This document shows, one piece after another, positions 1,486 through 45,100 of a stretch of 64,000 nucleotides of DNA (position 1 is its first letter; the number at the start of each line of letters is the position of its first letter). Origin of the DNA: Limisphaerales bacterium. Its GTDB lineage: Bacteria; Verrucomicrobiota; Verrucomicrobiia; Limisphaerales; AAA164-E04. The translations under genes were made by a program, and so were the position numbers. The stretch lies in contig OZ251460.1 of the NCBI GenBank assembly GCA_965242585.1, positions 1,486,692-1,550,691 of the forward strand. Direction: 5' to 3'. The notes under the pieces are model-generated. The model was not told the DNA's origin. It saw only the letters and a list, made by a program, of their open reading frames with translations, and did not search any database.

Positions 1486-1562
<77 letters not shown>

Positions 1563-1645: not shown

Positions 1646-2432
1646 TCAATCACCGTTTTGGTTTTGGAAAACTGAGGCTTGTTGTCGTTTCTTTTGCATT
1701 CGGCGGCGATGGAAGAACACAAAGCCGAGGGCAAACAGGCCGAAGATGAGGGCGTATTCTTCCGGTTCGGGGATGACTTGGCTGTTGACGACAACTCGCA
1801 CCGCGCCATTGGATTGCGCCGCAAAACCAGCATTCCCCACAGCCCCACGATTATTGAAGGTTCCCGCAAAGAAGTCGCCGATGGGTTTGTTGATAATGCC
1901 GGAGCCCACCCAAGCCGAAGAATTCCCGCTGGAATAGCTCAAACTGCTCCCGGAGACCCGAATCCCTATGACATCTCTAAAAAGAGTACCTCCGTCATCC
2001 AGGAAAAGATTGGCAATGGTTCGGTTAGTGCTGGCAATAGTGATGGTCGGCGTGTTAGTGGCGTTGGCGGCAAAGGTGATATTGGTTCGGCCGCCGCCCG
2101 GAATTCGGGCTCTCACCGAAGCGATGTCTCTGGTGTTGGAACTGGAAAACAAGGGAGACAGAGAGATCGTCTGGTCGTTGGGCTTATTGGCATCGTAAAA
2201 GTCGTTGTTAGAAGACGTAAAAGCCCAAGAGTCTCGAGAGGAGTAGTTTCCGGAGGTTCGGATGTTCCAGTTGTCTTGCGCGGTGGAAGAGCCGCTAAAA
2301 ATCCAAAGGGTTTGGTTGGTGGGATTGTCTTGGCTGGGATAGACGTCGATGATCAACTGCGCTTGGGCTTCGTACCCCCCCCCCCCCGCAAAGGCAGACG
2401 ACGGCCGCTAAGAAAGAGAATTTCCGCTTCAT
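1646..2432 (-). CDS. PEP-CTERM sorting-domain protein, interrupted by a +1 frameshift at a poly-G(13) tract (putative phase-variable gene)
   Basis: The 236-aa ORF (1646-2356) ends in VIPEPEEYALIFGLFALGFVFFHRRRMQKKR, i.e. PEP motif, TM helix and Arg cluster. A signal peptide MKRKFSFLAAVVCLCGGGG starts at ATG 2432 in another frame. The two frames meet at 13 G (plus-strand C, 2375-2387). Confidence 0.75.
2375..2387 (-). repeat. Homopolymeric tract: 13 G on the coding (minus) strand
   Basis: Counted directly: C at 2375-2387 on the plus strand, between the signal-peptide frame and the mature-protein frame of the PEP-CTERM gene. Confidence 0.95.
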
Positions 2433-2618
2433 ATTGATATGCTGGTTCATAACTGTTCCAGTCAAAAATTTCTTTGTTTCTAATCGCTCCGCCGCAACGA
2501 GTCAAGCCCTAAATCACAAAAAAAAAGAGAAAGTTGAGGAAGCGAAGGATGGCCAAGCGGATTCGATGGACCCCAAGCAAAAATTGGCGAACAAAAATTC
2601 CCTCAAATCGACAAGCGG

Positions 2619-5600
2619 CTATTCCAATAACAAGAGACGGACGAAGGTCTGTTCTCCGTCGTTGGGGAGTGTAACCGTGAGATTGATGGAACCATCGCCG
2701 TTGTCTTCGCTGGAAATTTGGAAATCGGCGCCTTCGTTCCATGCCGTCCACCGGCTGGAAATCACGCTTGGACTTGTTTGCAAAGCGAACTTGCGTCCGC
2801 TGGCCAAGAGAAAAGTGAAGGAAACAGATTCGGCGGAAGCAGAAGCGGACAAAAGTCGGCCTTCGAGAATTTCAAATCGGACGATTCTAGGAGAGACCAG
2901 CGGTTCCGGTATGTTGACAAAGCCGTCCAGAACTTCGACAATGTAATCCGCCAGTATTTGCGGCTCGGTGGTCTCGGTAAGCAACACTGCGCGGTTGGGA
3001 TCGTCGTTGACGGCGGCTAAGGATGCATAGCCGTCGCCGCCGGCTATAAGGAATTCGTTGACTACAAGACCGAAGGTTCGTTGCAGATCGCCTTGGGCTT
3101 CAAAGTTGGCCACCACCAGGTCTTTTGTGCCGTCGGCTTGGAAGATCGTCAGGTTCTTGACGCGGGACGGAGTTGTCAAGCTGGAGGCAGATTCCACGCC
3201 CGGCCGGCTTGGATCATATTCCAGAAAAATGCCGGCTGCTTGGAGAAAGCGCCCATCCACTGCCGGATAACGGCTGACCGCGTTCTCAAAGGTTGCGATC
3301 GCCTCCGCCGCAGTCAATTCGGCAATGGCGAGTCGGTTGTTGAACGCCAAAGCGGTGTTGATGGACAAGCGAGTGATCGCCGGACCTTGAATACTCCGGC
3401 GAATGCCGCCGCTGTTATTCAGCGCAATGTCCACCGAGAGTTCCGAACCTCGGCTTTCCAAGTAGCGACGGGCAAACCATAAAATGGAATCGGTGGCCAA
3501 CTGCCCCAGATTCGTTTCCCGAGTCCGCACTTCGGCGGTTGTAGCAACCAGTTCCGTCGTTGTTTCTCCAACTCGTTGGAACTGCTCGATGATGGAATCC
3601 GTATTCCGAAGCGCGGTAAAGATTTCCCGCACTTCGGCGGTTGCGGCAACTTCCGGCGTTTCTATTCGTCCGGTCAATTTCGTTTGCAACGCAGCCATTG
3701 CTTCGGGTGTGGAAGCAACCGGACCGCTACGATCATCGACGGCGCGAACGCGGCCAGCCTCATCGAAGCTAACTATCAAATTGCCGACATAACGATAGTT
3801 GGGGCCGCTGTTGACCACAACAACCGGATTCCCTTCGCCATCCGTGCGCATAATGGGATAATCCGCCGAGGCTGCGTCTCCCGGTCGCAAGAGATTGAAC
3901 GGGCCGTTGGCTCCGGATCGGGCAAGAAATCCACTGGCGGCGGCGTTCACGATAATGTCGATGCCTCGCAGGTTTTCCGTTGACATTGGATCCGAAGCAA
4001 AGTCTTGAGCGTGATCCAACAGAATGATCTTGTTGATGCCTTGAGATTCCAAAAGGGCAACTTGGGCCAACACCAGGTCCATAGTGTCTTCCAACGGCAG
4101 ATTTGTGTCCGGATCGCGTCCGCCAACGAAGTCCAATCCCGGCAAGGCGGAATCCTCAAGCCAGTTGAAGAAGTCTAAGGGAGCGCGGCCAATCAAACCG
4201 ATTTTCTCGCCGCCAGCTTCTACCCAAGCGCTTTTCGCCACTTTGCCGGCGTTTTCGGCAACGCCGGCCCCATCGCGGCCGATTGCAATGGCCGGCACGC
4301 CTTCCGCCACTTCGACTTGGCTAAAGTCAAGATTGACGGCGAGAAAGGGATAATTCGCAGCATGCAACAGGTGAGCAAAGTTGTTGATGCCGCCGTCAAA
4401 TCCGTGATTGCTGGTGCCGTTGGCCGTCAGTCCCATGGCGTTGTAAAAAGCAATGTCGGCCAAGCCTTGGGCGCCGAAGCCGGCGTGAACTGATGCCTCA
4501 TAAAACGGTCCGGGCAAGATATGATTCCCCGCCGTCAGGTAGATGGATGGAATGCCCTCCTTGGCCGCCAAACCTTGCAAACCGTTGAGGACGGCGCCGT
4601 AGTTGAGGATGGTAGTCTCCAGCGTATTCGGATTTTGGAAGGCCGATTCATTGTCTGAAGAATGTAACACCTGAAGTTTGTATTCGGCCGGAGCCACCAC
4701 TCGCACCGTGTGAACGGTGATCGTGCCGCTGCCTTCGTGAGCCACTGCCAACAAGGGTTTCCCAGAAGGACTTTGATCGGCCGGAATAAAGGTTATTGCA
4801 TCGGGACTAACATCGCCCGCTTGAGAAATGTCTTCGGCGGAGAAGTCCGTAGTATTTAAATACTGAACAAAGAAGGCGGAGTGGGGAGAAGTAATGTCGT
4901 ACATCATAATGCCGCCGACTCTTTCCAAACCTATAAAGGCGTAAACGCGGTCATCAATTTTGCCGATTGCCAACGCTTCCGGTTCCGGTCCCTTGTTGTC
5001 GCTACGCTGGTCAAACGAACCATCCCAATCATTTGCATTGAAGTTTTCGCCGAGAACTTCGGCGGTGATTCGCTCAAAGTCATCCCCAGAATCAAACACG
5101 ATCTTGCCGAATTCATCCCAGATGCTAAATGAACGGGCGCCGTAGGAGAAAATTTGATCGATGTCTCCATCGCCGTCAAAGTCCCCAGTGACAGGAGAGG
5201 CTTGGAGTCTTCCTAAATTTTCGTCCGCCTGCAAAGTTTCCGCATTGGGATAAGAGGCGGGATCCAAAGTTAAATGTTTGACTCTACTTGGACCAATGTC
5301 ACCGTCGCGATGGGCGCCTTCGTTGGCGCCTACAATATAATTCCGGCCAAGGGTTTCATAAGCCGCTGTTGCATCTGGTTGATACATTCCCATAACCGGC
5401 CATGTTTTGATATTGACTGCGCCGTCTCGGTCGCTGGCATCAAAACCTTGTCCTTCAATACTATGATCTTTAAATCCAAGTGAAAATAGTTCCTTCAGTT
5501 CCATAGTCGCCAAGTCAAGAATGGCGGCGGCGTTGTTTTCCTGCATAGTAACATAGGCCAATCGGTTATCGGGAGTGACGGCGATGTATTCCGGTTCTAA

Positions 5601-8177
5601 GTCTTCCGCCACGGTGGAAGGGCGTAAAAACTCGCCTTCCGAGTTGTGGACTTGCCCGAAGATCCGAATTCCCTTTTCTTGTAAAGTATCTTTTGAAGAG
5701 TTGAACGATGTAAAGTCAATGGTAGTAACTTGGGACTGCGTCAACTGAGCCACATCGTCCAGTGAACCGGAGCTTAGATCCACTATGGAGATGGAGCCAA
5801 GTGGATCGATAGTATACTCTTCTAAAGGTTCTCCTTCGTTAGCCGTCAAGAGTTTGGTGCCGTCCGGACTGAAGGTTATCATATTCGGCTGCACACCCAC
5901 TTGGACGCGGCTTAATTCCGTTCCGCTCTGCGCGTCTAGAAAAACTACAAATCCATTCTGGTCCCGAAATTTACTAAAAAAACCAACGGCAACTATGCCG
6001 TTGGCGGCAACTATGCCGTTGGCGGCAACTATGCCGTTGGCGGCAACTCCTAAATCGGAAATTAAAAATTCTAGAGACGGTGTCTCTGGGTTGCTGAGAT
6101 CTAAGACGAGAATCCCATCGATGGAAAGGGCGGTCACGAAGAGCCGTTTGGTGGACGGATCATAAGCGATGCCTTCATCAACGCCGCCGTCGGGCGAGTC
6201 CTTTCTGAATCTAGCGAACTTTCCTAGTTCGTTGAAGATGCGGACGCGTGGATTGGTCAAGTCATCGGACAAATGGACTTCTCCGTCCAGCGCATTTTGA
6301 ATGTATTCAGTGAGAACTTGCCGCTCTCCAATTTTGGGTTGTAGATTTATGCGCTCCGGATTTGATTTGGCGGCGCTAAAAGCGCGATAGCCGTCGCCTC
6401 CGGTGGCCAGAAATTCATTGGCGGCTAACACGAAGGTTTGGGAGAGATTTCCGACAACTTGGAAGTTTTCGATCAAGGGGACGAGCGTTCCATTCTCACG
6501 GCGGACGGTCAAATAGATGACGCGCGACGGAATATCCAAAGTCAAGGCGTCGGGAATTCCCGGACGGCGAGAATCAAACTCGAAATCCAAACCGGCGATT
6601 TGCGGAAAGGAGCCAGAGCGATGGGGAAAATGGGAAACGGCGTTTTCCACCGCTGCGAGCAATTCGTTTCCGCTCAATTCGATGATTTCCAAAGTGTTGT
6701 CAAAGGCTAAGGCCGACTCAATCGAGAACTTGGTGATGTTCGGGCCGGATATTGAATTGCGAATGCCGCCGCTGTTTTTTAGCGCAAGGTCCACGCTGAC
6801 TTCCCTTCCCTCTTGACGAACATATTGGCGAGCCCACCAAAGATACGAATCGGCGACTAAACGGCCTAAGTTGGTTTCCCGGCTTCGGACATGGTCTTCT
6901 GCGCCGTTTAGCGGCGAGGAAGTGGTGCCGACGATGGCGAACAAATCCTGGATTAACGGCGTTTTTGTGAGCGTCTCAAAAGTGGATCGCACTTCTTCCG
7001 GCGCTTGCAAGGTTGGCACCAGCAATTCCGCGCTCAAAGCCGCAACTGCTTCGGTGGTGCTGGCAACCGGCCCGCTGCGATCATCTATTTGAGCAATCAA
7101 GCCTTGGTCGTCAAAAGTCACTATCAAGTTGCCGACGTAGCGATAGTTTTGGCCGCTGTTGACAATGCAAACCGGATTCCCATCGGCATCGGCGCCCAAG
7201 ATTGGATAGTCGACCACGGGTTTGTCGTCGGGACGCAAAAGATTGAACGGGCCGTCGGGCTCGGCTTTCGCCATGAAGTCTGTGTTGCCGGCAAAGACGA
7301 TAATGTCGACGTCGCGCAATTCGCTGGCCGGAACGGGATCGCCGCTAAAGTCCAACGGATGGTCCAAAAGAATGATTTTGTTGATTCCCTGCGCTTTCAA
7401 AAGATCGACTTGCTCTAGAATTTGAGGAATCGCCGGCGCCAACGGCCGGTTGGTTTCCGGATGGCGTCCGCCAACAAAGTCCAGTCCGGGCAAGTTTGCT
7501 TCCGGGTCCAGCGTGATGTCAAAAAGGTCGCTCGGAGCGCGGCCAATCAAGCCGATGCGTTCTCCGTTCAGTTCCACCCAAGCGCTTTTGGCCACCTTGC
7601 CTTGGTTCGCTTCGACGCTGGCGGCGTCTTCTCCAATCTCAATGGCGGGAACGCCTTCGGAGAGACGGACTTTGGAGAAGTCCAAGTTTACCGCTAAAAA
7701 CGGATATTTGGCGAAGCGCAATCGGCGCGCAAAACCTTCAATCCAACCGTCAATGCTACCGTTAAACTCATGGTCGCCAATGCTGGTGGCCGTCAGTCCC
7801 GTGGCGTTGAAAAAGTGGATGTCGGCCAATCCCTGCAGGCCTAAGGAATCCACTTGGGCGGAGGCTTGATAAAAAGGCCCGGGCAAGGTTTGATCCCCGG
7901 CGGCCACATACAGAGAGGGAATGTTCTCCCGCTCCGCCAGCAGTTTCAAACCGTGAAGCACGGCGCCGTAGTGGAGAAGCTTCGGCTCCAAAGTGTTCGG
8001 ATCCTGAAAAGCAGATTCGTGATTCGAAGCATGCAAAACTTGCAGCGGAAAACCTTCGACAGGAGGAGTTTCCTGCGCAACGGCCGACCGCAAAAAGAGC
8101 GCCCCAACCGCGCCCGCAAGGAAGGTTAAAGTTTGTTTTTTATAGACTTCTCGCATAGATAGTAAGTTTCCATTCAT
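2619..8177 (-). CDS. Giant secreted phosphoesterase: two UshA-like metallophosphoesterase/5'-nucleotidase modules flanking a central beta-propeller, plus C-terminal F-V-R tail
   Basis: 1852 aa with signal peptide MREVYKKQTLTFLAGAVGALFLRSAVAQ. Module 1 has LQVLHASNHESAF...AAGDQTLPGPFY...IGDHEFN...LDHP...RSRETNLGRLVAD...LKNSGGIRNS...GGDGY. Module 2 repeats the same order: LQVLHSSDNESAF...TAGNHILPGPFY...SNHGFD...RTRETNLGQLATD...LNNSGGIRRS...GGDGY. The middle ~550 aa (GFDASDRDGAVNIKTWPVMGMYQPDA...GANEGAHRDGD...DFDGDGDIDQ) resembles phytase-like/choice-of-anchor-I propellers. Confidence 0.8.
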   Translation of the reverse strand: MNGNLLSMREVYKKQTLTFLAGAVGALFLRSAVAQETPPVEGFPLQVLHASNHESAFQDPNTLEPKLLHYGAVLHGLKLLAERENIPSLYVAAGDQTLPGPFYQASAQVDSLGLQGLADIHFFNATGLTATSIGDHEFNGSIDGWIEGFARRLRFAKYPFLAVNLDFSKVRLSEGVPAIEIGEDAASVEANQGKVAKSAWVELNGERIGLIGRAPSDLFDITLDPEANLPGLDFVGGRHPETNRPLAPAIPQILEQVDLLKAQGINKIILLDHPLDFSGDPVPASELRDVDIIVFAGNTDFMAKAEPDGPFNLLRPDDKPVVDYPILGADADGNPVCIVNSGQNYRYVGNLIVTFDDQGLIAQIDDRSGPVASTTEAVAALSAELLVPTLQAPEEVRSTFETLTKTPLIQDLFAIVGTTSSPLNGAEDHVRSRETNLGRLVADSYLWWARQYVRQEGREVSVDLALKNSGGIRNSISGPNITKFSIESALAFDNTLEIIELSGNELLAAVENAVSHFPHRSGSFPQIAGLDFEFDSRRPGIPDALTLDIPSRVIYLTVRRENGTLVPLIENFQVVGNLSQTFVLAANEFLATGGDGYRAFSAAKSNPERINLQPKIGERQVLTEYIQNALDGEVHLSDDLTNPRVRIFNELGKFARFRKDSPDGGVDEGIAYDPSTKRLFVTALSIDGILVLDLSNPETPSLEFLISDLGVAANGIVAANGIVAANGIVAVGFFSKFRDQNGFVVFLDAQSGTELSRVQVGVQPNMITFSPDGTKLLTANEGEPLEEYTIDPLGSISIVDLSSGSLDDVAQLTQSQVTTIDFTSFNSSKDTLQEKGIRIFGQVHNSEGEFLRPSTVAEDLEPEYIAVTPDNRLAYVTMQENNAAAILDLATMELKELFSLGFKDHSIEGQGFDASDRDGAVNIKTWPVMGMYQPDATAAYETLGRNYIVGANEGAHRDGDIGPSRVKHLTLDPASYPNAETLQADENLGRLQASPVTGDFDGDGDIDQIFSYGARSFSIWDEFGKIVFDSGDDFERITAEVLGENFNANDWDGSFDQRSDNKGPEPEALAIGKIDDRVYAFIGLERVGGIMMYDITSPHSAFFVQYLNTTDFSAEDISQAGDVSPDAITFIPADQSPSGKPLLAVAHEGSGTITVHTVRVVAPAEYKLQVLHSSDNESAFQNPNTLETTILNYGAVLNGLQGLAAKEGIPSIYLTAGNHILPGPFYEASVHAGFGAQGLADIAFYNAMGLTANGTSNHGFDGGINNFAHLLHAANYPFLAVNLDFSQVEVAEGVPAIAIGRDGAGVAENAGKVAKSAWVEAGGEKIGLIGRAPLDFFNWLEDSALPGLDFVGGRDPDTNLPLEDTMDLVLAQVALLESQGINKIILLDHAQDFASDPMSTENLRGIDIIVNAAASGFLARSGANGPFNLLRPGDAASADYPIMRTDGEGNPVVVVNSGPNYRYVGNLIVSFDEAGRVRAVDDRSGPVASTPEAMAALQTKLTGRIETPEVAATAEVREIFTALRNTDSIIEQFQRVGETTTELVATTAEVRTRETNLGQLATDSILWFARRYLESRGSELSVDIALNNSGGIRRSIQGPAITRLSINTALAFNNRLAIAELTAAEAIATFENAVSRYPAVDGRFLQAAGIFLEYDPSRPGVESASSLTTPSRVKNLTIFQADGTKDLVVANFEAQGDLQRTFGLVVNEFLIAGGDGYASLAAVNDDPNRAVLLTETTEPQILADYIVEVLDGFVNIPEPLVSPRIVRFEILEGRLLSASASAESVSFTFLLASGRKFALQTSPSVISSRWTAWNEGADFQISSEDNGDGSINLTVTLPNDGEQTFVRLLLLE
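5991..6044 (-). repeat. Perfect 18-bp x3 in-frame tandem repeat inside the phosphoesterase gene
   Basis: AACTATGCCGTTGGCGGC occurs three times without a mismatch (5991-6008, 6009-6026, 6027-6044), with partial copies on both sides. It encodes (AANGIV)3 on the minus strand. Confidence 0.95.
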
Positions 8178-16556: not shown

Positions 16557-17427
16557 TCATAACCGCCCATAACTACCACCTCCTTTCTTCGTTTTCTTTT
16601 GAAATTGACGGAAAAAGATAAAACCAAGCGCAAATAATCCAAACACGAGCGCATATTCCTCTGGTTCGGGGATGACTCGATGGTAGATGCTCACATGAAC
16701 ACCGCCAAAATAAGGGCGGTCGGTGAGGGTTTGAATGCTGTCAAAACCTAATAGACTAAAATGTTCCGAAGCCCTGAAGTCACCAATGGGTTTGTCCATG
16801 ATGCCAGAGCCAAACCATCGAAATGTTTGCCCGTTGGTATAAGACAGATTGCCGCCGCCCGGTGTGCCTCGAATGCCGATTTCGTCAACAGCGGCGTCGT
16901 TCATAAAAATCGAGCCGATGTTTTTAGTGGCGATTCCAGCGGTCATTGTCGGCGTGTTGGTGACGTCGACGTTATCAAACAAGATAGTGTTTCCGCTAAA
17001 CTGCCCAAAACTAGTAGCGCCGGGCAGTCTTCTCGTTATCGAATCGATGTCTTTTGGATGGTTGGTACTGGAAAACAGCGGAGAAATGGAAAACAACTCG
17101 TTGGTTGGCTTGTTAGATGAATAAAAGCCCCCAATGTCTTGGTGGTCTGAAGTTTTCCAAGAGTCTCTTCGGTGGAAGTTTCCGCTACTTCGGATGGAGC
17201 TTCCATAAACAGCGCGTTTGGCGATGTTTGAGTTTATCTCGTTCGGTCCAAAAATCCAAATCGTTTTGTTGTTGTCGTCTTGGCTTGGAAAAACTGAGAT
17301 GGCAAGTTGCGCTTGCCCCCCCCGTCGTTGCCAAAAATCCCGTCAGCGCCAGCCAAAAGAAGCCGAAAGTCGTCCATTTCGTCCACCGTGCATTGAAATC
17401 ACTCATGTCGAAATCACTTTTGCCCAC
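16557..17427 (-). CDS. PEP-CTERM sorting-domain protein (paralogue of 1646-2432), interrupted by a +1 frameshift at a poly-G(8) tract
   Basis: The C-terminus VIPEPEEYALVFGLFALGFIFFRQFQKKTKK is nearly identical to that of the first paralogue. The mature-part frame reads QAQLAISVFPSQDDNNKTIWIFG...SISPLFSSTNHPKD, which parallels AQAQLIIDVYPSQDNPTNQTLWIFSG...SLSPLFSSSNTRD. The signal peptide MSDFNARWTKWTTFGFFWLALTGFLATTGG sits in another frame, and the frames meet at 8 G (17316-17323). Confidence 0.75.
17316..17323 (-). repeat. Homopolymeric tract: 8 G on the coding (minus) strand
   Basis: Counted directly: C at 17316-17323 on the plus strand, at the signal-peptide/mature-protein junction of the second PEP-CTERM gene. 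Confidence 0.95.
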
Positions 17428-32724: not shown

Positions 32725-33474
32725 TCATTCGGGGGGTTGGGCGATGTTGACGCCCTGTTCAATTTGTCGTTTGACTTCGGCGGCGTCAATGCTTTCCACA
32801 TGGCCGTCGACAAAAAGGTAGTTGGCGCGCCCTTGGCTTCGGTCTTCTTTGGGAGCGCCGGTTCGGTGGCGGTCGGGTTGAATGTCGCCGAGCACACTGT
32901 CCCATCCTCCCGATAGCCAAATCCGAGAATGAGTGTGATCCTCGCCCACGGTCGGAGCGTTGTCATCAGCGGTTTCAAACAGCAAAATGGTTTCGGTCGG
33001 TTGCTTTAACTGGTCCAACTTTGGCAAAGGCTCAATCAGCCGACCAAACGGATCCACGCGCGGCACGGACAAAAATTCATTCAATATGTAACTGGTGCCG
33101 CTCAATTGATGCCGCTTGTTGCGCTTGGGATCGGCGGGGCAAAGTCGAATCTTTTCCGAGTTGCCGACATACGGACGCAGTTGGTAAATCCACATTTTGT
33201 TTGTGATCTGGGTTTCGTGCCCGGTCATCGGCAGCAACCCTTCAAAGTCATCGGCATACATTCGGAAACCCAAGCCAATCTGCCGCAAGTTCGACACGCA
33301 CTTTATCCGTTTGGCTTGAGCGGACGCCTTGCTCAAGGCCGGCAAAAGCAACGAGGCCAAGATCACGATGATCACAATCACCACAAGCAGCTCAATTAAC
33401 GTAAAAGCGCGGACATTTTGGCGGTTCCCCGCCGATCCGGGCACTTCCCGGACGTAGTTCTGACAATTCATCAT
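32725..33474 (-). CDS. Prepilin-type N-terminal cleavage/methylation protein with H-X9-DG C-terminus (DUF1559 pseudopilin-like)
   Basis: The motif [29 protein letters not shown] is the class III signal. The C-terminus [15 protein letters not shown] matches the H-X9-DG motif. The start is assumed at MMNCQ (33474); the ORF opens at 33552. The stop overlaps the long form of the downstream ORF by 4 nt. Confidence 0.85.
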
Positions 33475-33575
33475 ACTTAGTTTTGGTTCAGTTAGCTTCT
33501 GTTCCCGACGGCATTTGCCAAAACAACGGGAAACTTTTTCCGCCGCCCGCAAAAGGCGCCGGAGACGAAGAATGC

Positions 33576-33971
33576 TTAAACCAAAACCGGAGGCGCACGA
33601 GGAGGGCCGTCGGAGAAACGAACGAGCCCTTCAGAAAGGATGGAACACAGACAAGAAAGATCGACTGGCAACCAATGCTCCAAAACCAGTTCCGCGGCTT
33701 GGATGCCGTGCCAAAAACCAGCCCAAAAACCGGCGTGACAAAAGGTATCCAGTGGAGCATCGCGATCGGGAGGAGGAGACTCTGGCGCGGAATCCCGTTC
33801 TTCAACCGGATGGCAGGCAGAATGATAGGTCAACGAACACTCCACCTCGTCGCCGTGCAACAACCAATGGAAATCGACGCTGCGAGCGCCAAGCGAGAGC
33901 AAAAGGAACAAAACGACCAGACTTCCGCCCGTCCCCCCGACAACGATTCGATTGTTTCGAAACAGTTTCAC
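33576..33971 (-). CDS. Possible small membrane-anchored His/Cys/Trp-rich protein
   Basis: A GTG at 33971 gives [29 protein letters not shown] followed by [11 protein letters not shown]...YHSACHP...[13 protein letters not shown]...EHW. It is on the same strand and directly upstream of the pseudopilin gene. Several other frames are also open here, so the coding call is tentative. Confidence 0.35.
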
Positions 33972-42105: not shown

Positions 42106-45100
42106 TTACGAGCATCCTAAGCTTTCGCCGCAGTTCAGGCACTTGTAACAAGCGCCGTTGCGCACCGTGACGTGGCCGCAACAGGGACAGATTGGCGCGT
42201 CTTGTTGAAAGTGAGCCACTGCGTCGCTGATCGTCTCAATCCGTTTGCGGCGACGAGGCATGGAAGGCAAAGACGTCGGGTGAGACGGATCGTTTCTTTG
42301 CAAAATTTCCGCCTCCTTATTCCGCGGCAGCTCCGGAACGGGGCGGTTCACTTTTTTTTTTACTTCCGATTCAAGTCCGGGCATTACTAATTCTACTTGA
42401 TTGGATTCTTGCGCATCGTCGGTGGCGGTGAATTCTTGCGACATCCAGCGGAATACGTAATCGGTAATGGAGGTTGCTTGGCGGATGTTGGGGTTTTTTG
42501 TCCAGCCGGAGGGTTCGAAGCGTTGATGAGAGAACTTTCGCGCAAGGATGTCTAGGGGGACGCCGTATTGTAGCGCCATGCTTGTCAGTGTGCCGATGGT
42601 GTCCATGAGTCCGCCGATGGTAGATCCTTCTTTGGCCATGGTGACGAACAATTCGCCGGGCGATCCGTCCGCAAATAATCCCACAGTCAGGTAGCCTTCG
42701 TGTCCGGCGATGTCGAATTTGTGCGTCTTTGCCATCCTTGTTGCCGGGAGCCGGCGTCTCACAGGTTGGGTGGAGGCATGTTTTAGGCTTTCCACCTGTT
42801 CTTTCAACTGGGCGACTTGTTTTAGCAGGTCTTCATCAGCTGCCGACGAGTCTTCGCCGGCCTTTGACGTACTGAGCGGTTGGGATCGTTTGGAACCGTC
42901 GCGGTAGATTGCTACGCACTTGAGTCCGAGACGCCAGGCCTGCACGTAGGCTTCTTGAATTTCCGCTATCGAACAGTGGTTTGGCAAGTTGACTGTTTTA
43001 GAAATGGCGCCGCTGATGAAGGGTTGGGCGGCGGCCATCATCTTCAAATGCGCCGAGTAGTGAATGCTGCGAGTTCCTTGAAAGGGCTTGAAGGCGCAGT
43101 CAAACACTTGAAGATGTTCCGGCTTCAGTCCACTGACAAAGGCGTTTCCGTCCTTGCGGACGTCTTCGATGGTGTCGTGTTCTTCCACGTGCGTGATGAT
43201 TTGCTGGACGGCGGGTTCTTCATAGCCTAAGCGTTGCAATGCTTCCGGCACGGTTTGGTTGACGATTTTGAGCATGCCGCCGCCGGCCAGAAGTTTGTAC
43301 TTCGCCAGCGCGATGTCGGGTTCGATGCCGGTTGTGTCGCAGTCCATCATGAACGAGATCGTGCCGGTAGGCGCCAGCACGGTGACCTGCGCATTGCGGA
43401 ATCCGTATTTTTCTCCCGCTGATTCGGCTCGTTGCCAGCAAGCTTGGGCCTCGTCTTTTAGATGGTCGAATGAGCTTGCCGCGATGGCGTCCACCGCACC
43501 TCGATGCCGACGCACTACGGCTTGCATAAAGTCTGCATTGCTCTCAGCTACGGGGCGGTCGACGCCGGCGCATTTGGCGTCTCGCCAGCCCTGGAACGGC
43601 CCCATAGCGGCGGCGATAGCGGCGGACTGCGTGTATGCTTCGCCGGTCATAATCGCCGTGATGGCGCCGGCCAGCGCCCGGGATTCCTGCGAGTCGTAAG
43701 GCAGTCCGTAGCTCATAATCAACGCGCCCAAGTTGGCGTAGCCCAGTCCCAAAGTGCGGAAAATGTGGGAGTTTTCGGCAATGGCGGGCGTGGGATAGCT
43801 GGCGTTGTCCACCAAAATTTCTTGGGCAGTGATAAAAATGCGCACCGCGGCTTTGAATCGCTCCGCGTCAAAACCATCGGCGCCAGAGAATTTCATTAAG
43901 TTCAAGGAAGCCAAGTTGCAGGCAGTGTTGTCGAGGAAGACGTATTCGGAGCAAGGGTTGGTGGAGTGGATTGGCGCAGTTCCCTTGCACGTATGCCAAC
44001 GCTGGATGGCGGAGTCGAATTGAAGGCCGGGATCGCCGCACAGATGAGCGCCTTCGGCAATCTTGCGGAGGAGATTCGCAGCGTCTTTTTTTTCCAGAGG
44101 CTCGCCGGTGGTGATGGCGCGAGTCCACCAAGATCGGCCTTCAATGGCAGCTTGCATGAAATCGTCGCTGACGCGGACCGAGAGATTCTCATTTTGGTAC
44201 ATAATGCTCCCATAAGCGTCCCCATTGTACGAGCCGTCGTATCCGGCGTCGATCAAAGCCCAAGCCTTTTTCTCCTCCTTTTGTTTTGCGTCGATGAACT
44301 CCTCGATGTCTCCGTGCCAATCGCGCAAAGTGTTCATCTTGGCAGCGCGGCGGGTTTTGCCCCCCGATTTCACCACGTTGGCCACTTGGTCGTAAACGCG
44401 CAGGAACGACAACGGCCCGCTGGGTCGCCCGCCGCCGCTGAGCTTCTCTCGGCTGGATCGCAAGGGAGTTAAATCCGTGCCGGTGCCGGAACCGTGCTTG
44501 AAGAGCATCGCCTCGCTAGCCGCCAAGCGCATGATGTCTTCCATGTTGTCCTCCACAGATTGGATGAAGCAGGCGCTACACTGCGGATATTCGTATTGAG
44601 TGGGCGACCGAGCCGCCTTATTCGCGCTCCGATGGTAAAACCAGTTGCCCTGCGCCGAGTTCTTTCCCACGCGGTATTGATGCCAGAGGCCGACGTTGAA
44701 CCAGACCGGAGAATTGAAAGCGCCGAATTGATGCAAACAAAGCCAGCACAACTCCGCGTAAAACACCTCGCCGTCGACCTCGCTGAAATAACCGTCCCGA
44801 ACCCCCCAATCCGCAATCGTCCGACACACCCGATGGATCATTTGGCGGACGGAACGCTCTCGCTCCGCAGTTCCCTGCTCGCCGTAAAAATACTTGGACA
44901 CCACCACTTTCGCCGCCAGCAACGACCACGATTTCGGCACTTCCACGTCGTCTTGGCGGAAAATTGTGCCGCCGCGCTCGTCGGTGATCTCCACACTTCG
45001 CTTCTCCCAAGCCACCGAATCAAAGGGATCCTCCCCCTCTTCGCTGAAAACTCGCTCAATCGACAACCCCTGGCGGCAATCTGCGGCGGTTGCAGACCGC

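What the first reader, a model, noticed from the sequence alone, without database searches (positions are those of the whole stretch)
1646..2450. Poly-G(13) tract at the signal-peptide junction of a PEP-CTERM gene: candidate slipped-strand phase switch (currently OFF)
On the minus strand, ATG 2432 opens MKRKFSFLAAVVCLC and then runs into 13 consecutive G (2387-2375). After GGGG the frame is one base out of register with the 236-aa ORF that carries the PEP-CTERM anchor. With 12 or 15 G the product would read MKRKFSFLAAVVCLCGGGG(G)YEAQAQLIIDVYPSQ..., a standard signal peptide with an AQA|Q cleavage site. A generic homopolymer sequencing artefact looks less likely, because other long runs inside conserved genes are in frame (A10 at 42352-42361 in nrdJ; two G7 runs in the cytochrome gene). 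The paralogue at 16557-17427 has the same architecture. As far as I know, contingency loci of this kind are not described for PEP-CTERM/exosortase cargo.
Basis: partly seen in the sequence, partly recalled or inferred. Interest (0 to 1): 0.7.

Follow-up and report, generated by a model that had tools for sequence, protein, structure and literature searches.

The report
Poly-G on/off switch in surface-protein family
A run of 13 G's sits inside the export-signal coding part of a cell-surface protein gene and knocks it one base out of frame; the same kind of run, at every length from 8 to 32 bases, occurs in about 50 sister genes in related Verrucomicrobia genomes, which marks it as a heritable, reversible on/off switch of a type so far described mainly in pathogens.

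Summary
G13 lies at 2387-2375 (-), and ATG 2432 is one base out of register with the intact 236-codon PEP-CTERM-like ORF; 12 or 15 G restore a standard signal peptide.

The gene belongs to a large family of unknown function. At least 37-43 copies occur in each of two complete Limisphaerales MAGs.
- 50 of 80 fetched loci carry a G or C tract of 8-32 nt at the 5' end, about 170-fold enriched over their flanks.
- Of 30 junction-tract loci, 9 are in frame, 11 are off by 1 and 10 are off by 2.
- All 21 out-of-frame copies keep a full-length body with the PEP motif.
- Copies with 99-100% identical flanks differ only in tract length.
- The syntenic orthologue of this gene has G16 instead of G13.

Best reading: a slipped-strand contingency locus, closest to gonococcal pilC and opa, in a new phylum and a new cargo class. 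Switching itself, and the true population state (OFF), cannot be shown without reads. I found no prior description.

The parts
2375..2387 (-). G13 homopolymer tract, the proposed switch. It encodes GGGG plus one extra base, in the c-region of the signal peptide.
   Evidence: homologous tracts of 9-27 G in 30 related loci
2388..2432 (-). Start codon ATG 2432 and the n- and h-regions of the signal peptide, MKRKFSFLAAVVCLC. A second in-frame ATG lies at 2450 (MNQHIN-).
   Evidence: the same peptide M[KN][RQH]K[LF]S[LF]LAAV.C[LI]C occurs in in-frame homologues
2360..2374 (-). YEAQA, the rest of the c-region with an A-x-A signal-peptidase site (AQA|Q). It is readable only in the +1 frame at 13 G.
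   Evidence: AQAQL is nearly invariant in alignment A1
1646..2359 (-). Body of the gene: a mature domain of about 200 aa (predicted beta-sandwich, no known family), the sorting signal and the stop codon. It is intact, with no stop or second frameshift.
   Evidence: (74% identity to the best homologue)
1700..1774 (-). PEP-CTERM-like sorting signal IPEPEEYALIFGLFALGFVFFHRRR.
   Evidence: TIGR02595 15.2 bits, cut-off 16; IPEP..YA.FGLFAL invariant
2295..2432 (-). Truncated 45-aa product made from ATG 2432 at 13 G (MKRKFSFLAAVVCLCGGGGVRSPSAVDHRRLSQPRQSHQPNPLDF*).
2477..2505 (-). Promoter-like element TTGACT-17 nt-TAGAAA, conserved in the upstream cassette of 25 aligned paralogues. This is inferred; the consensus scan did not flag it because the second hexamer does not end in T.
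2518..2526 (-). T9 run just upstream of the -35-like hexamer. A T-rich run of variable length (about T5-T9) occupies this position in the paralogues.
17316..17323 (-). G8 tract of the window paralogue, at the homologous signal-peptide/mature junction.
17324..17406 (-). Paralogue start ATG 17406 and signal peptide MSDFNARWTKWTTFGFFWLALTGFLATT(GG). This frame stops at 17185.
16557..17315 (-). Paralogue body (QAQLAISVFPSQD...), 42% identical to gene 1 and one base out of frame with ATG 17406. It includes the PEP-CTERM-like signal at 16584-16673.

Best explanation
The G13 tract is a simple-sequence contingency switch.

Proposed mechanism: slipped-strand mispairing during replication gains or loses G's. 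Only lengths of 12, 15, 18... join the signal peptide (ATG 2432, MKRKFSFLAAVVCLC-Gly(n)-YEAQA|Q) to the body of a PEP-CTERM-type cell-envelope protein. At 13 G, as assembled, translation ends after 45 codons, and the body cannot be exported because its frame has no signal peptide. The gene is therefore OFF but intact and reversible.

Because the tract lies in the cleaved leader, in-frame length changes alter only the number of glycines in the c-region, not the mature protein.

The gene is one member of a family of dozens of paralogues per genome in Limisphaerales (Verrucomicrobiota). These share a conserved promoter/5'UTR/leader cassette and a conserved C-terminal anchor around a fast-evolving body. 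Each copy carries its own tract, so a population would display many combinations of these surface proteins.

Shown: the tract, the frames, the family, the tract-length differences between near-identical and orthologous copies, and the intact bodies of out-of-frame copies.

Inferred: that the length changes at high frequency within a lineage, that ON copies are exported and processed by an exosortase, and what the proteins do (unknown; surface display is assumed).
For: Anatomy.
- G13 sits between ATG 2432 and the +1-frame body. 12 or 15 G give a continuous protein with a canonical leader.
- The second family member in the window has G8 at the same junction and is also one base out of frame.

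Family.
- 292 homologues were found.
- 133 tblastn-confirmed loci were found. The best 80 all come from two complete Limisphaerales MAGs: 43 in OZ241891 and 37 in OZ242022.

Tracts.
- 50 of 80 loci have a G/C run of at least 8 nt (median 16, range 8-32) within -210..+60 of the gene start. Only 6 such runs occur in the other 440 kb fetched, an enrichment of about 170-fold.

Frames.
- Of 30 junction-tract loci, 9 are in frame, 11 are off by 1 and 10 are off by 2.
- Among the 120 best database proteins, the type-1 gene calls split into about 27 in-frame, 25 in the frame reading 'LPLRGGGG/MRGGG' and 24 in the frame reading 'AFAGGGG' or truncated.

Mutability relative to flanks.
- L034/L035: flanks 100% identical over 1100 nt, G11 versus G12.
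- L010/L011: 99.8% identical, G10 versus G11.
- L004/L012: 99.1% identical, C19 versus C20.
- L017/L026: 99.0% identical, G18 versus G14.
- L042/L044: 96% identical, G27 versus G21.

Orthologue.
- L027 has the same neighbours: a 5'-nucleotidase-like gene at 87% aa identity, tRNA-Met at 100% and ORF385 at 85%. It has the same C-terminal tail VFQNQN[GC]D.
- It carries G16 instead of G13, is also out of frame, and has an intact body.

Not pseudogenes.
- All 21 out-of-frame junction-tract loci keep a 224-260-codon open body ending in the PEP motif.

Independent assemblies.
- ENA scaffolds from different samples hold G9 in-frame and G8 out-of-frame versions of genes that are 93-96% identical.

Window quality.
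- Long ORFs of 1853, 1292 and 2788 codons are intact, and other homopolymers lie in frame.
Against: - No reads are available, so neither within-population length heterogeneity nor the true modal length at this locus has been seen.
- Consensus lengths of long homopolymers can be miscalled by one base. A roughly even split over three frames is also what random miscalls, or neutral drift of a tract whose length does not matter, would give.
- The two complete MAGs are of unknown sequencing technology.
- PEP-CTERM status is just below the curated threshold.
- No exosortase was found in the 10 window ORFs scanned.
- The function of the mature domain is unknown: no Pfam or NCBIfam family and no PDB fold match.
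- The window tract and its orthologue are both +1 (13 and 16 G). That could be coincidence (chance about 1/3) or could hint at a frame preference I cannot explain.
Confidence: 0.75

Rival explanations
1. Consensus miscall at this locus. The tract is real and may be a switch, but the true or majority length in the sampled population is 12 or 15 G, so the gene is ON. The 'OFF' call would then be an artefact of homopolymer length calling or of collapsing a mixed population into one consensus. This rival concerns the state of the locus, not its nature, and is compatible with the best explanation.
For: - Length calls for runs of at least 10 bases are error-prone on several platforms (general knowledge).
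- Many near-identical pairs differ by exactly one base: G11/G12, G10/G11, C19/C20.
- The technology behind the window is unknown.
Against: - The window has intact long ORFs and in-frame A10/T8/C7 runs.
- The shorter, easier G8 tract of the paralogue is also one base out.
- Length differences of 4-12 bases between close copies cannot be miscalls: G18/G14, G27/G21, G11/G23.
- Scaffold assemblies show G8 versus G9.
Confidence: 0.2
2. Expression-level slippage. RNA polymerase stutters on the long G tract, or ribosomes shift on GGG codons, so a fraction of products is in frame whatever the DNA length. On this view tract length drifts neutrally and the genes are always expressed at reduced yield rather than switched.
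For: - All three frames are equally populated and all bodies are intact. This is what one expects if frame does not matter.
- Tracts reach 27-32 nt, lengths at which transcriptional slippage is plausible. Precedent is known for A/T runs of at least 9 in bacteria (own knowledge).
Against: - No consistent frame offset exists, as a programmed +1 or -1 ribosomal shift would require (11 versus 10 versus 9).
- Many family tracts are short (G8-G9: window gene 2, L059, and ENA loci L082-L085), where slippage on G/C runs should be rare.
- Conservation of tracts at three different positions, including one outside the coding region, fits DNA-level switching better.
- The two mechanisms could coexist.
Confidence: 0.12
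3. Plain pseudogene. A frameshift fixed in a decaying copy of a redundant multigene family.
For: The gene is out of frame as assembled, and the family is highly redundant.
Against: - The body has no stop or second frameshift over 236 codons and keeps all family-invariant residues.
- The orthologue in another species is likewise out of frame yet intact, although the flanking genes have diverged to 85-87%.
- 21 of 21 out-of-frame relatives are intact.
- The only lesion lies exactly in the tract.
Confidence: 0.03

Closest known systems
Neisseria gonorrhoeae pilC1/pilC2 (homo-G tract in the signal-peptide coding region)
   Same: A poly-G run inside the leader-coding part of an exported surface-protein gene. 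Frameshifts in the run give RecA-independent ON/OFF switching (PMC5354566). In-frame length changes touch only the leader.
   Different: - Two copies in Neisseria, against dozens here.
- Different protein family, phylum and anchoring system (pilus-associated adhesin versus PEP-CTERM-type).
- Tracts here reach 27-32 nt.
- Switching here is not demonstrated.
Neisseria opa gene family (CTCTT repeats in the leader-coding region); own knowledge
   Same: A multigene family of outer-surface proteins. Each copy has its own repeat in the leader-coding region and switches independently, giving combinatorial display. The ends are conserved and the middle is variable.
   Different: - A pentanucleotide repeat rather than a homopolymer.
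- About 11 copies, against at least 37-43 family members here, of which 24-26 per genome bear a tract.
- A beta-barrel outer-membrane protein rather than a PEP-CTERM protein.
Campylobacter jejuni polyG/polyC phasome
   Same: G/C homopolymers of at least 7 nt in reading frames switch surface-structure genes. NCTC11168 has 29 such loci (PMC4965091).
   Different: - In Campylobacter the loci are spread over many unrelated genes, mostly glycosylation enzymes.
- Here a single paralogous protein family alone supplies a comparable number of loci per genome, with longer tracts (median 16).
Akkermansia muciniphila homopolymer-bearing genes (same phylum)
   Same: A Verrucomicrobiota genome with 17 genes carrying homopolymers longer than 8 bp, proposed as phase variable, and with 21 PEP-CTERM proteins plus an exosortase (PMC3048395).
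   Different: - The paper does not connect the repeats with the PEP-CTERM proteins. The cited examples are capsule genes with G8 and C10.
- No multigene family with leader tracts is described.
Promoter-spacer homopolymer switches (for example Bordetella fim poly-C, Neisseria porA/opc, Treponema tpr poly-G); own knowledge, see also PMC1891110 and PMC7864442 (titles seen)
   Same: Family members L024 and L030 carry G16 and G14 directly after a TTGACA hexamer about 110 nt upstream of the ATG. This is the layout of transcriptional homopolymer switches.
   Different: This does not apply to the window gene, whose tract is inside the coding region. A promoter role in L024/L030 is inferred from position only.

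Membership tests
Simple-sequence-repeat contingency locus (translational phase variation) | Homopolymer or short repeat of mutable length (about 7 units or more) inside the 5' part of the reading frame | tested here: met
   G13 at 2387-2375, 15 codons after ATG 2432. G8 at 17323-17316 in the paralogue.
Simple-sequence-repeat contingency locus (translational phase variation) | Repeat length alone decides whether the full protein is made, with no other lesion | tested here: met
   12 or 15 G give a continuous 261/262-aa protein; the body is intact. 21 of 21 out-of-frame relatives are intact.
Simple-sequence-repeat contingency locus (translational phase variation) | Repeat length differs between closely related sequences while the flanks are conserved | tested here: met
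   - Pairs with 99-100% identical flanks differ in tract length.
- Syntenic orthologue G16 versus G13.
- ENA loci G8 versus G9.
Simple-sequence-repeat contingency locus (translational phase variation) | High-frequency, reversible length change within a clonal population, with matching ON/OFF phenotype | not testable with these tools
   No reads, cultures or expression data are available.
Simple-sequence-repeat contingency locus (translational phase variation) | Gene product acts at the cell surface or modifies it | tested here: inconclusive
   A signal peptide with an AQA|Q site after repair, and a C-terminal PEP + TM + basic signal. Localisation is not shown.
PEP-CTERM / exosortase cargo | C-terminal PEP motif, hydrophobic helix and basic cluster matching TIGR02595 | tested here: inconclusive
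   IPEPEEYALIFGLFALGFVFFHRRR. TIGR02595 aligns over the full model at 15.2 bits (gene 1) and 15.6 bits (gene 2), against a cut-off of 16. It is not reported when the whole protein is scanned.
PEP-CTERM / exosortase cargo | N-terminal signal peptide | tested here: met
   Present once the tract is in frame. It has an n-region (MKRK), an h-region and an A-x-A site, and is conserved in in-frame homologues. No signal-peptide predictor was available.
PEP-CTERM / exosortase cargo | Exosortase (EpsH/Xrt) gene in the same genome | not tested
   Only 10 window ORFs were scanned, with no exosortase hit. The rest of the genome is not available.
Programmed ribosomal frameshift gene | One fixed frame offset conserved across homologues, with a defined slippery site | tested here: not met
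   Offsets 0, 1 and 2 occur 9, 11 and 10 times among 30 homologous loci.

The most novel reading that the evidence does not exclude
Limisphaerales (Verrucomicrobiota that are not known pathogens) run one of the largest single-family phasomes seen so far. At least 24-26 independently switchable copies per genome belong to one PEP-CTERM-type surface-protein family. Tracts sit at three different positions: poly-G in the leader c-region, poly-C in the leader n-region, and poly-G next to a promoter hexamer. Similar tracts occur in prepilin leaders. Together these would give combinatorial, heritable surface variation, perhaps against phages, grazers or a host. The unusually long tracts (up to 32 nt) may additionally give graded expression through transcriptional slippage.
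Probability: 0.5. Interest if true: 0.75.

Novelty: new member of a known kind. Interest (0 to 1): 0.62.

Why it matters
Homopolymer contingency loci are textbook features of small-genome, host-adapted pathogens such as Neisseria, Haemophilus, Campylobacter and Helicobacter. Four consequences follow if this reading is right.

- **Scope of the strategy.** A multigene family of exosortase-type cargo with dozens of leader-embedded tracts per genome, in an uncultured verrucomicrobial order, would extend the strategy to a new phylum and a new sorting system. It would also give a first functional handle on this unannotated protein family: variable surface display.
- **Annotation.** About two thirds of family members in public databases are mis-called. 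Some are truncated at the residue after the cleavage site. Others carry spurious N-terminal extensions that are translations of the promoter and 5'UTR.
- **Assembly polishing.** 'Fixing' these frameshifts would erase biology.
- **Testability.** Long-read metagenomes containing these organisms could show tract-length heterogeneity directly.

Tried and rejected
- **Exact-sequence look-ups.** Look-ups of the window's own gene, its neighbour ORF385 and P0007 found nothing. The source genome is not in the collection, so no strain-level comparison of this exact locus was possible.
- **JGI metagenome scans.** Both failed. A DNA pattern with the gene-1 flanks gave 0 hits. The protein-alignment scan gave one marginal C-terminal hit (L081). 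The lineage seems absent from that collection.
- **Family and fold assignment.** Pfam and NCBIfam on the repaired proteins gave no family. The AlphaFold model (pLDDT 77, beta-sandwich) had no PDB fold match (best E 0.045, TM 0.25). Function remains unassigned.
- **Promoter scan.** The consensus scan did not flag the conserved TTGACT-17-TAGAAA. The promoter call rests on conservation only.
- **Strict orthology of the ENA ON/OFF pairs.** This was not supported, because the upstream neighbours differ. They count as close relatives, not the same locus.
- **Stable poly-glycine linker.** Rejected, because two thirds of tracts are not in frame.
- **Lipoprotein lipobox at ..VVCLC|G.** Rejected on sequence, because the -1 and -3 positions do not fit.
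- **Habitat of the ENA samples.** It could not be established. My guess that 'PANK22-1' is a sponge-microbiome study is unverified.

Full report
**1. The observation**

On the minus strand the window reads ATG(2432) AAG CGG AAA TTC TCT TTC TTA GCG GCC GTC GTC TGC CTT TGC. Thirteen G follow (2387-2375), then TACGAAGCCCAAGCGCAGTTG.
- It is the only homopolymer longer than 10 in 64 kb. None of 100 dinucleotide-preserving shuffles contains a G13.
- In the ATG frame the product is MKRKFSFLAAVVCLCGGGGVRSPSAV... and stops at 2295.
- The long ORF with the C-terminal IPEPEEYALIFGLFALGFVFFHRRR lies in the +1 frame. Behind the tract it reads ...AFAGGGGYEAQAQLIIDVYPSQ.
- Between the upstream TAG and the TTG at 2356 there is no start codon. 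2356 is the residue right after the AQA|Q site.
- Deleting one G or adding two yields a continuous 261/262-aa protein with an n-region, an h-region and an A-x-A site.
The window as a whole is 94% covered by long open frames, including ORFs of 1853, 1292 and 2788 codons.

**2.

The only other family member in the window (42% identical) has a G8 run at 17323-17316, at the homologous leader/mature junction.
- Its ATG 17406 frame (MSDFNARWTKWTTFGFFWLALTGFLATTGG...) runs into a stop at 17185.
- The body (QAQLAISVFPSQD...IPEPEEYALVFGLFALGFIFF...) is one base out of register. Seven G would join them.
- So the two longest G/C runs in the window sit at the same codon position of the only two members of one family, and both genes are off by +1.

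**3. The family**

The repaired protein has no Pfam or NCBIfam family.
- The C-terminal 50 residues align to the whole PEP-CTERM model TIGR02595 at 15.2 and 15.6 bits, just under the cut-off of 16.
- A search of public proteins returned 292 homologues, up to 74% identical, from ENA metagenome assemblies and three complete genomes of 4.2-4.5 Mb.
- A genome scan confirmed 133 loci. The best 80 all lie in two complete MAGs labelled Limisphaerales bacterium: OZ241891.1 with 43 loci and OZ242022.1 with 37.
- An AlphaFold model (pLDDT 77) is a beta-sandwich followed by the C-terminal helix. It has no significant PDB neighbour. The biochemical function is unknown.

**4. Tracts are a family trait**

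In-frame homologues read M[KN][RQH]K[LF]S[LF]LAAV.C[LI]C, then 2 to 9 glycines, then (Y)xAQAQL.

At DNA level, 50 of the 80 loci carry a G or C run of at least 8 nt (median 16, range 8-32) within -210..+60 of the gene start. Only 6 such runs exist in the remaining 440 kb of fetched flanks, an enrichment of about 170-fold.

Three placements occur.
- Poly-G in the leader c-region, as in the window: 30 loci, G9-G27.
- Poly-C directly after codon 5-6 (MKIQST-Pro(n)-ANRKGLAFGAF...LEQSQAQL): 10 loci, C10-C32. Some have two overlapping ATGs in different frames.
- G14 or G16 immediately after a TTGACA hexamer about 110 nt upstream of the ATG (L024, L030).

Upstream of the junction-tract genes, a T-rich run, TTGAC(T), a 17-nt spacer, TA[GA]AAA and AGAAATTTTTGAC are conserved across 25 aligned loci, including the window gene. 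The consensus promoter scan does not flag this.

**5. Evidence that length is unstable and decides expression**

- Frames. Among the 30 junction-tract loci the body is in frame with the leader in 9, off by one in 11 and off by two in 10. The poly-C loci split 5 in frame and 5 out.
- Database proteins. Gene callers produced about 27 in-frame proteins and about 25 reading ...RRLPLRGGGG or MRGGGG. The latter start at the TTG inside cTTTGCGGG, or extend through the 5'UTR and promoter. About 24 more read ...AFAGGGG or start at the residue after the cleavage site, as the window gene does.
- Near-identical paralogues differ essentially only in the tract:
  - 100% identity over 1100 nt, G11 versus G12
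  - 99.8%, G10 versus G11
  - 99.1%, C19 versus C20
  - 99.0%, G18 versus G14
  - 96%, G27 versus G21
- Clusters at 90% identity contain in-frame and out-of-frame versions of the same gene.
- ENA scaffolds from four different samples show G9 (in frame) against G8 (out of frame) in genes 93-96% identical. Their upstream neighbours differ, so they are close relatives rather than proven orthologues.
- All 21 out-of-frame junction-tract loci retain a 224-260-codon open body ending in the PEP motif, exactly like the 9 in-frame ones.

**6. The orthologous locus**

L027 (OZ242022, 1066629-1072336) has the same neighbours as the window gene.
- The 5'-nucleotidase-like giant ORF is 87% identical, tRNA-Met is 100% identical and ORF385 is 85% identical.
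- It has the same unusual C-terminal tail (VFQNQNCD against VFQNQNGD).
- It carries G16 where the window has G13, is also out of frame by +1, and is intact.
- Its body is only 59% identical to the window protein, far below the neighbours.
- The tract has therefore been kept at this locus across a species-level divergence while its length changed. The gene evolves much faster than its surroundings, as expected of an exposed, selected surface protein or of gene conversion within the family.
- The partly syntenic counterpart of window gene 2 (L058) has no tract and is in frame. Another relative (L059) has G9 and is out of frame.

**7. Interpretation**

The simplest account of all this is a slipped-strand contingency switch embedded in the cleaved leader. 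This is the arrangement known from gonococcal pilC (homo-G tract in the signal-peptide region; PMC5354566) and, with a pentamer, from the opa family (own knowledge).

Rivals:
- A one-base consensus miscall at this particular tract cannot be excluded. That would change the state (ON rather than OFF), not the nature of the locus.
- Transcriptional or ribosomal slippage that makes frame irrelevant would also explain equal frame occupancy with intact bodies, and may contribute at tracts of 20-30 nt. It fits poorly with the G8-G9 members and with the tract placed outside the coding region.
- A fixed programmed frameshift is contradicted by the absence of a preferred offset.
- A decaying pseudogene is contradicted by the intact bodies here, in the orthologue and in all 21 out-of-frame relatives.

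**8. Novelty**

Full-text searches found no paper linking PEP-CTERM or exosortase cargo with repeat-mediated phase variation, and none on Limisphaerales.
- The Akkermansia genome paper lists 17 homopolymer-bearing genes and, separately, 21 PEP-CTERM proteins, without connecting them.
- For scale, C. jejuni NCTC11168 has 29 polyG/C loci in its whole genome (PMC4965091). Here one protein family alone supplies 24-26 per genome.
- The mechanism is a known kind. The phylum, the cargo class, the family size, the tract lengths and the three placements are new instances.

**9. Limits**

- No reads, no expression data and no whole genome for the window were available.
- The sequencing technology and habitat are unknown.
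- Switching itself is inferred from comparative patterns.

Noticed in passing
L001, L004, L012, L018, L019, L023, L025, L040, L054, L056 (about 45-100 nt upstream of match start 2501): A second subfamily (leader ...LLSLAPLEQSQAQL) carries poly-C tracts of 10-32 nt right after codon 5-6 (MKIQST-Pro(n)-ANRKG...). Five are in frame and five are out. Several have two overlapping ATGs in different frames (ATGAATCATGAAAAT), so two of the three tract phases could be translated.
   Followed up: partly
L024 2328-2343; L030 2331-2344: G16 and G14 tracts lie immediately after a TTGACA hexamer, about 110 nt upstream of the ATG of family members that have no coding tract. This is the layout of a promoter-spacer (transcriptional) homopolymer switch.
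   Followed up: partly
L052 around 4837-4848; L075 around 5317-5334 (gene on the minus strand of the locus): Prepilin-type proteins (MNSSI.NQS-Pro(n)[20 protein letters not shown]...) carry a 12- or 18-nt C tract (G on the + strand of the locus) in their leader peptide. Homopolymer switching in these genomes therefore seems to extend beyond the PEP-CTERM family. The window's own prepilin-type ORF (32725-33630, -) has no such tract.
   Followed up: partly
L004 567-584; L019 471-491 and 601-618; L040 5593-5611: Further long tracts (G18, G21, C18, C19) occur in or next to unrelated small ORFs in the flanks of family loci. One ORF reads ...IVEFS-Gly(n)-ILQTTESLLGEW.... These genes were not identified.
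   Followed up: no
Database proteins such as P0005, P0016, P0027, P0032, P0039, P0104, P0112, P0115; window 2353-2505 (-): N-terminal extensions such as MTRCGGAIRNKEIFD...EAEILFLSGRRLPLRGGGG are translations of the conserved promoter, 5'UTR and leader in the wrong frame, starting at the TTG of the TTGACT hexamer. About two thirds of family members in public protein sets are therefore mis-started or truncated.
   Followed up: yes
Window 1646-2432 versus L027 2440-3210; clusters: The family gene is only 59% identical between syntenic loci whose neighbours are 85-87% identical. Proteins more than 90% identical in the body carry different leader/junction sequences (P0013, P0121, P0123). This suggests diversifying selection or cassette-like recombination between the conserved 5' end and the body.
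   Followed up: partly
L034 (OZ242022 967228-972966) and L035 (1529199-1534938): Two copies in one genome are 100% identical over at least 1100 nt around the tract and differ only by G11 versus G12. This points to a very recent duplication or gene conversion. The extent of the duplicated segment was not measured.
   Followed up: no
Window 5987-6048: A perfect 18-nt tandem repeat, 3.4 copies (CGGCAACTATGCCGTTGG), lies in frame inside the 1852-aa duplicated 5'-nucleotidase-like ORF (2619-8177, -). It encodes the repeated (V)AANGI motif and could be a length-variable repeat.
   Followed up: no
Window 2518-2526: A T9 run (minus strand) lies just upstream of the -35-like hexamer of gene 1. The paralogues have T5-T9 at this position. 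It could be an UP-like element or a second variable tract.
   Followed up: no
Window 1486-1562: tRNA-Met (CAT) lies directly downstream of gene 1 on the opposite strand. It is 100% identical in the syntenic locus L027 and served as the synteny anchor.
   Followed up: yes
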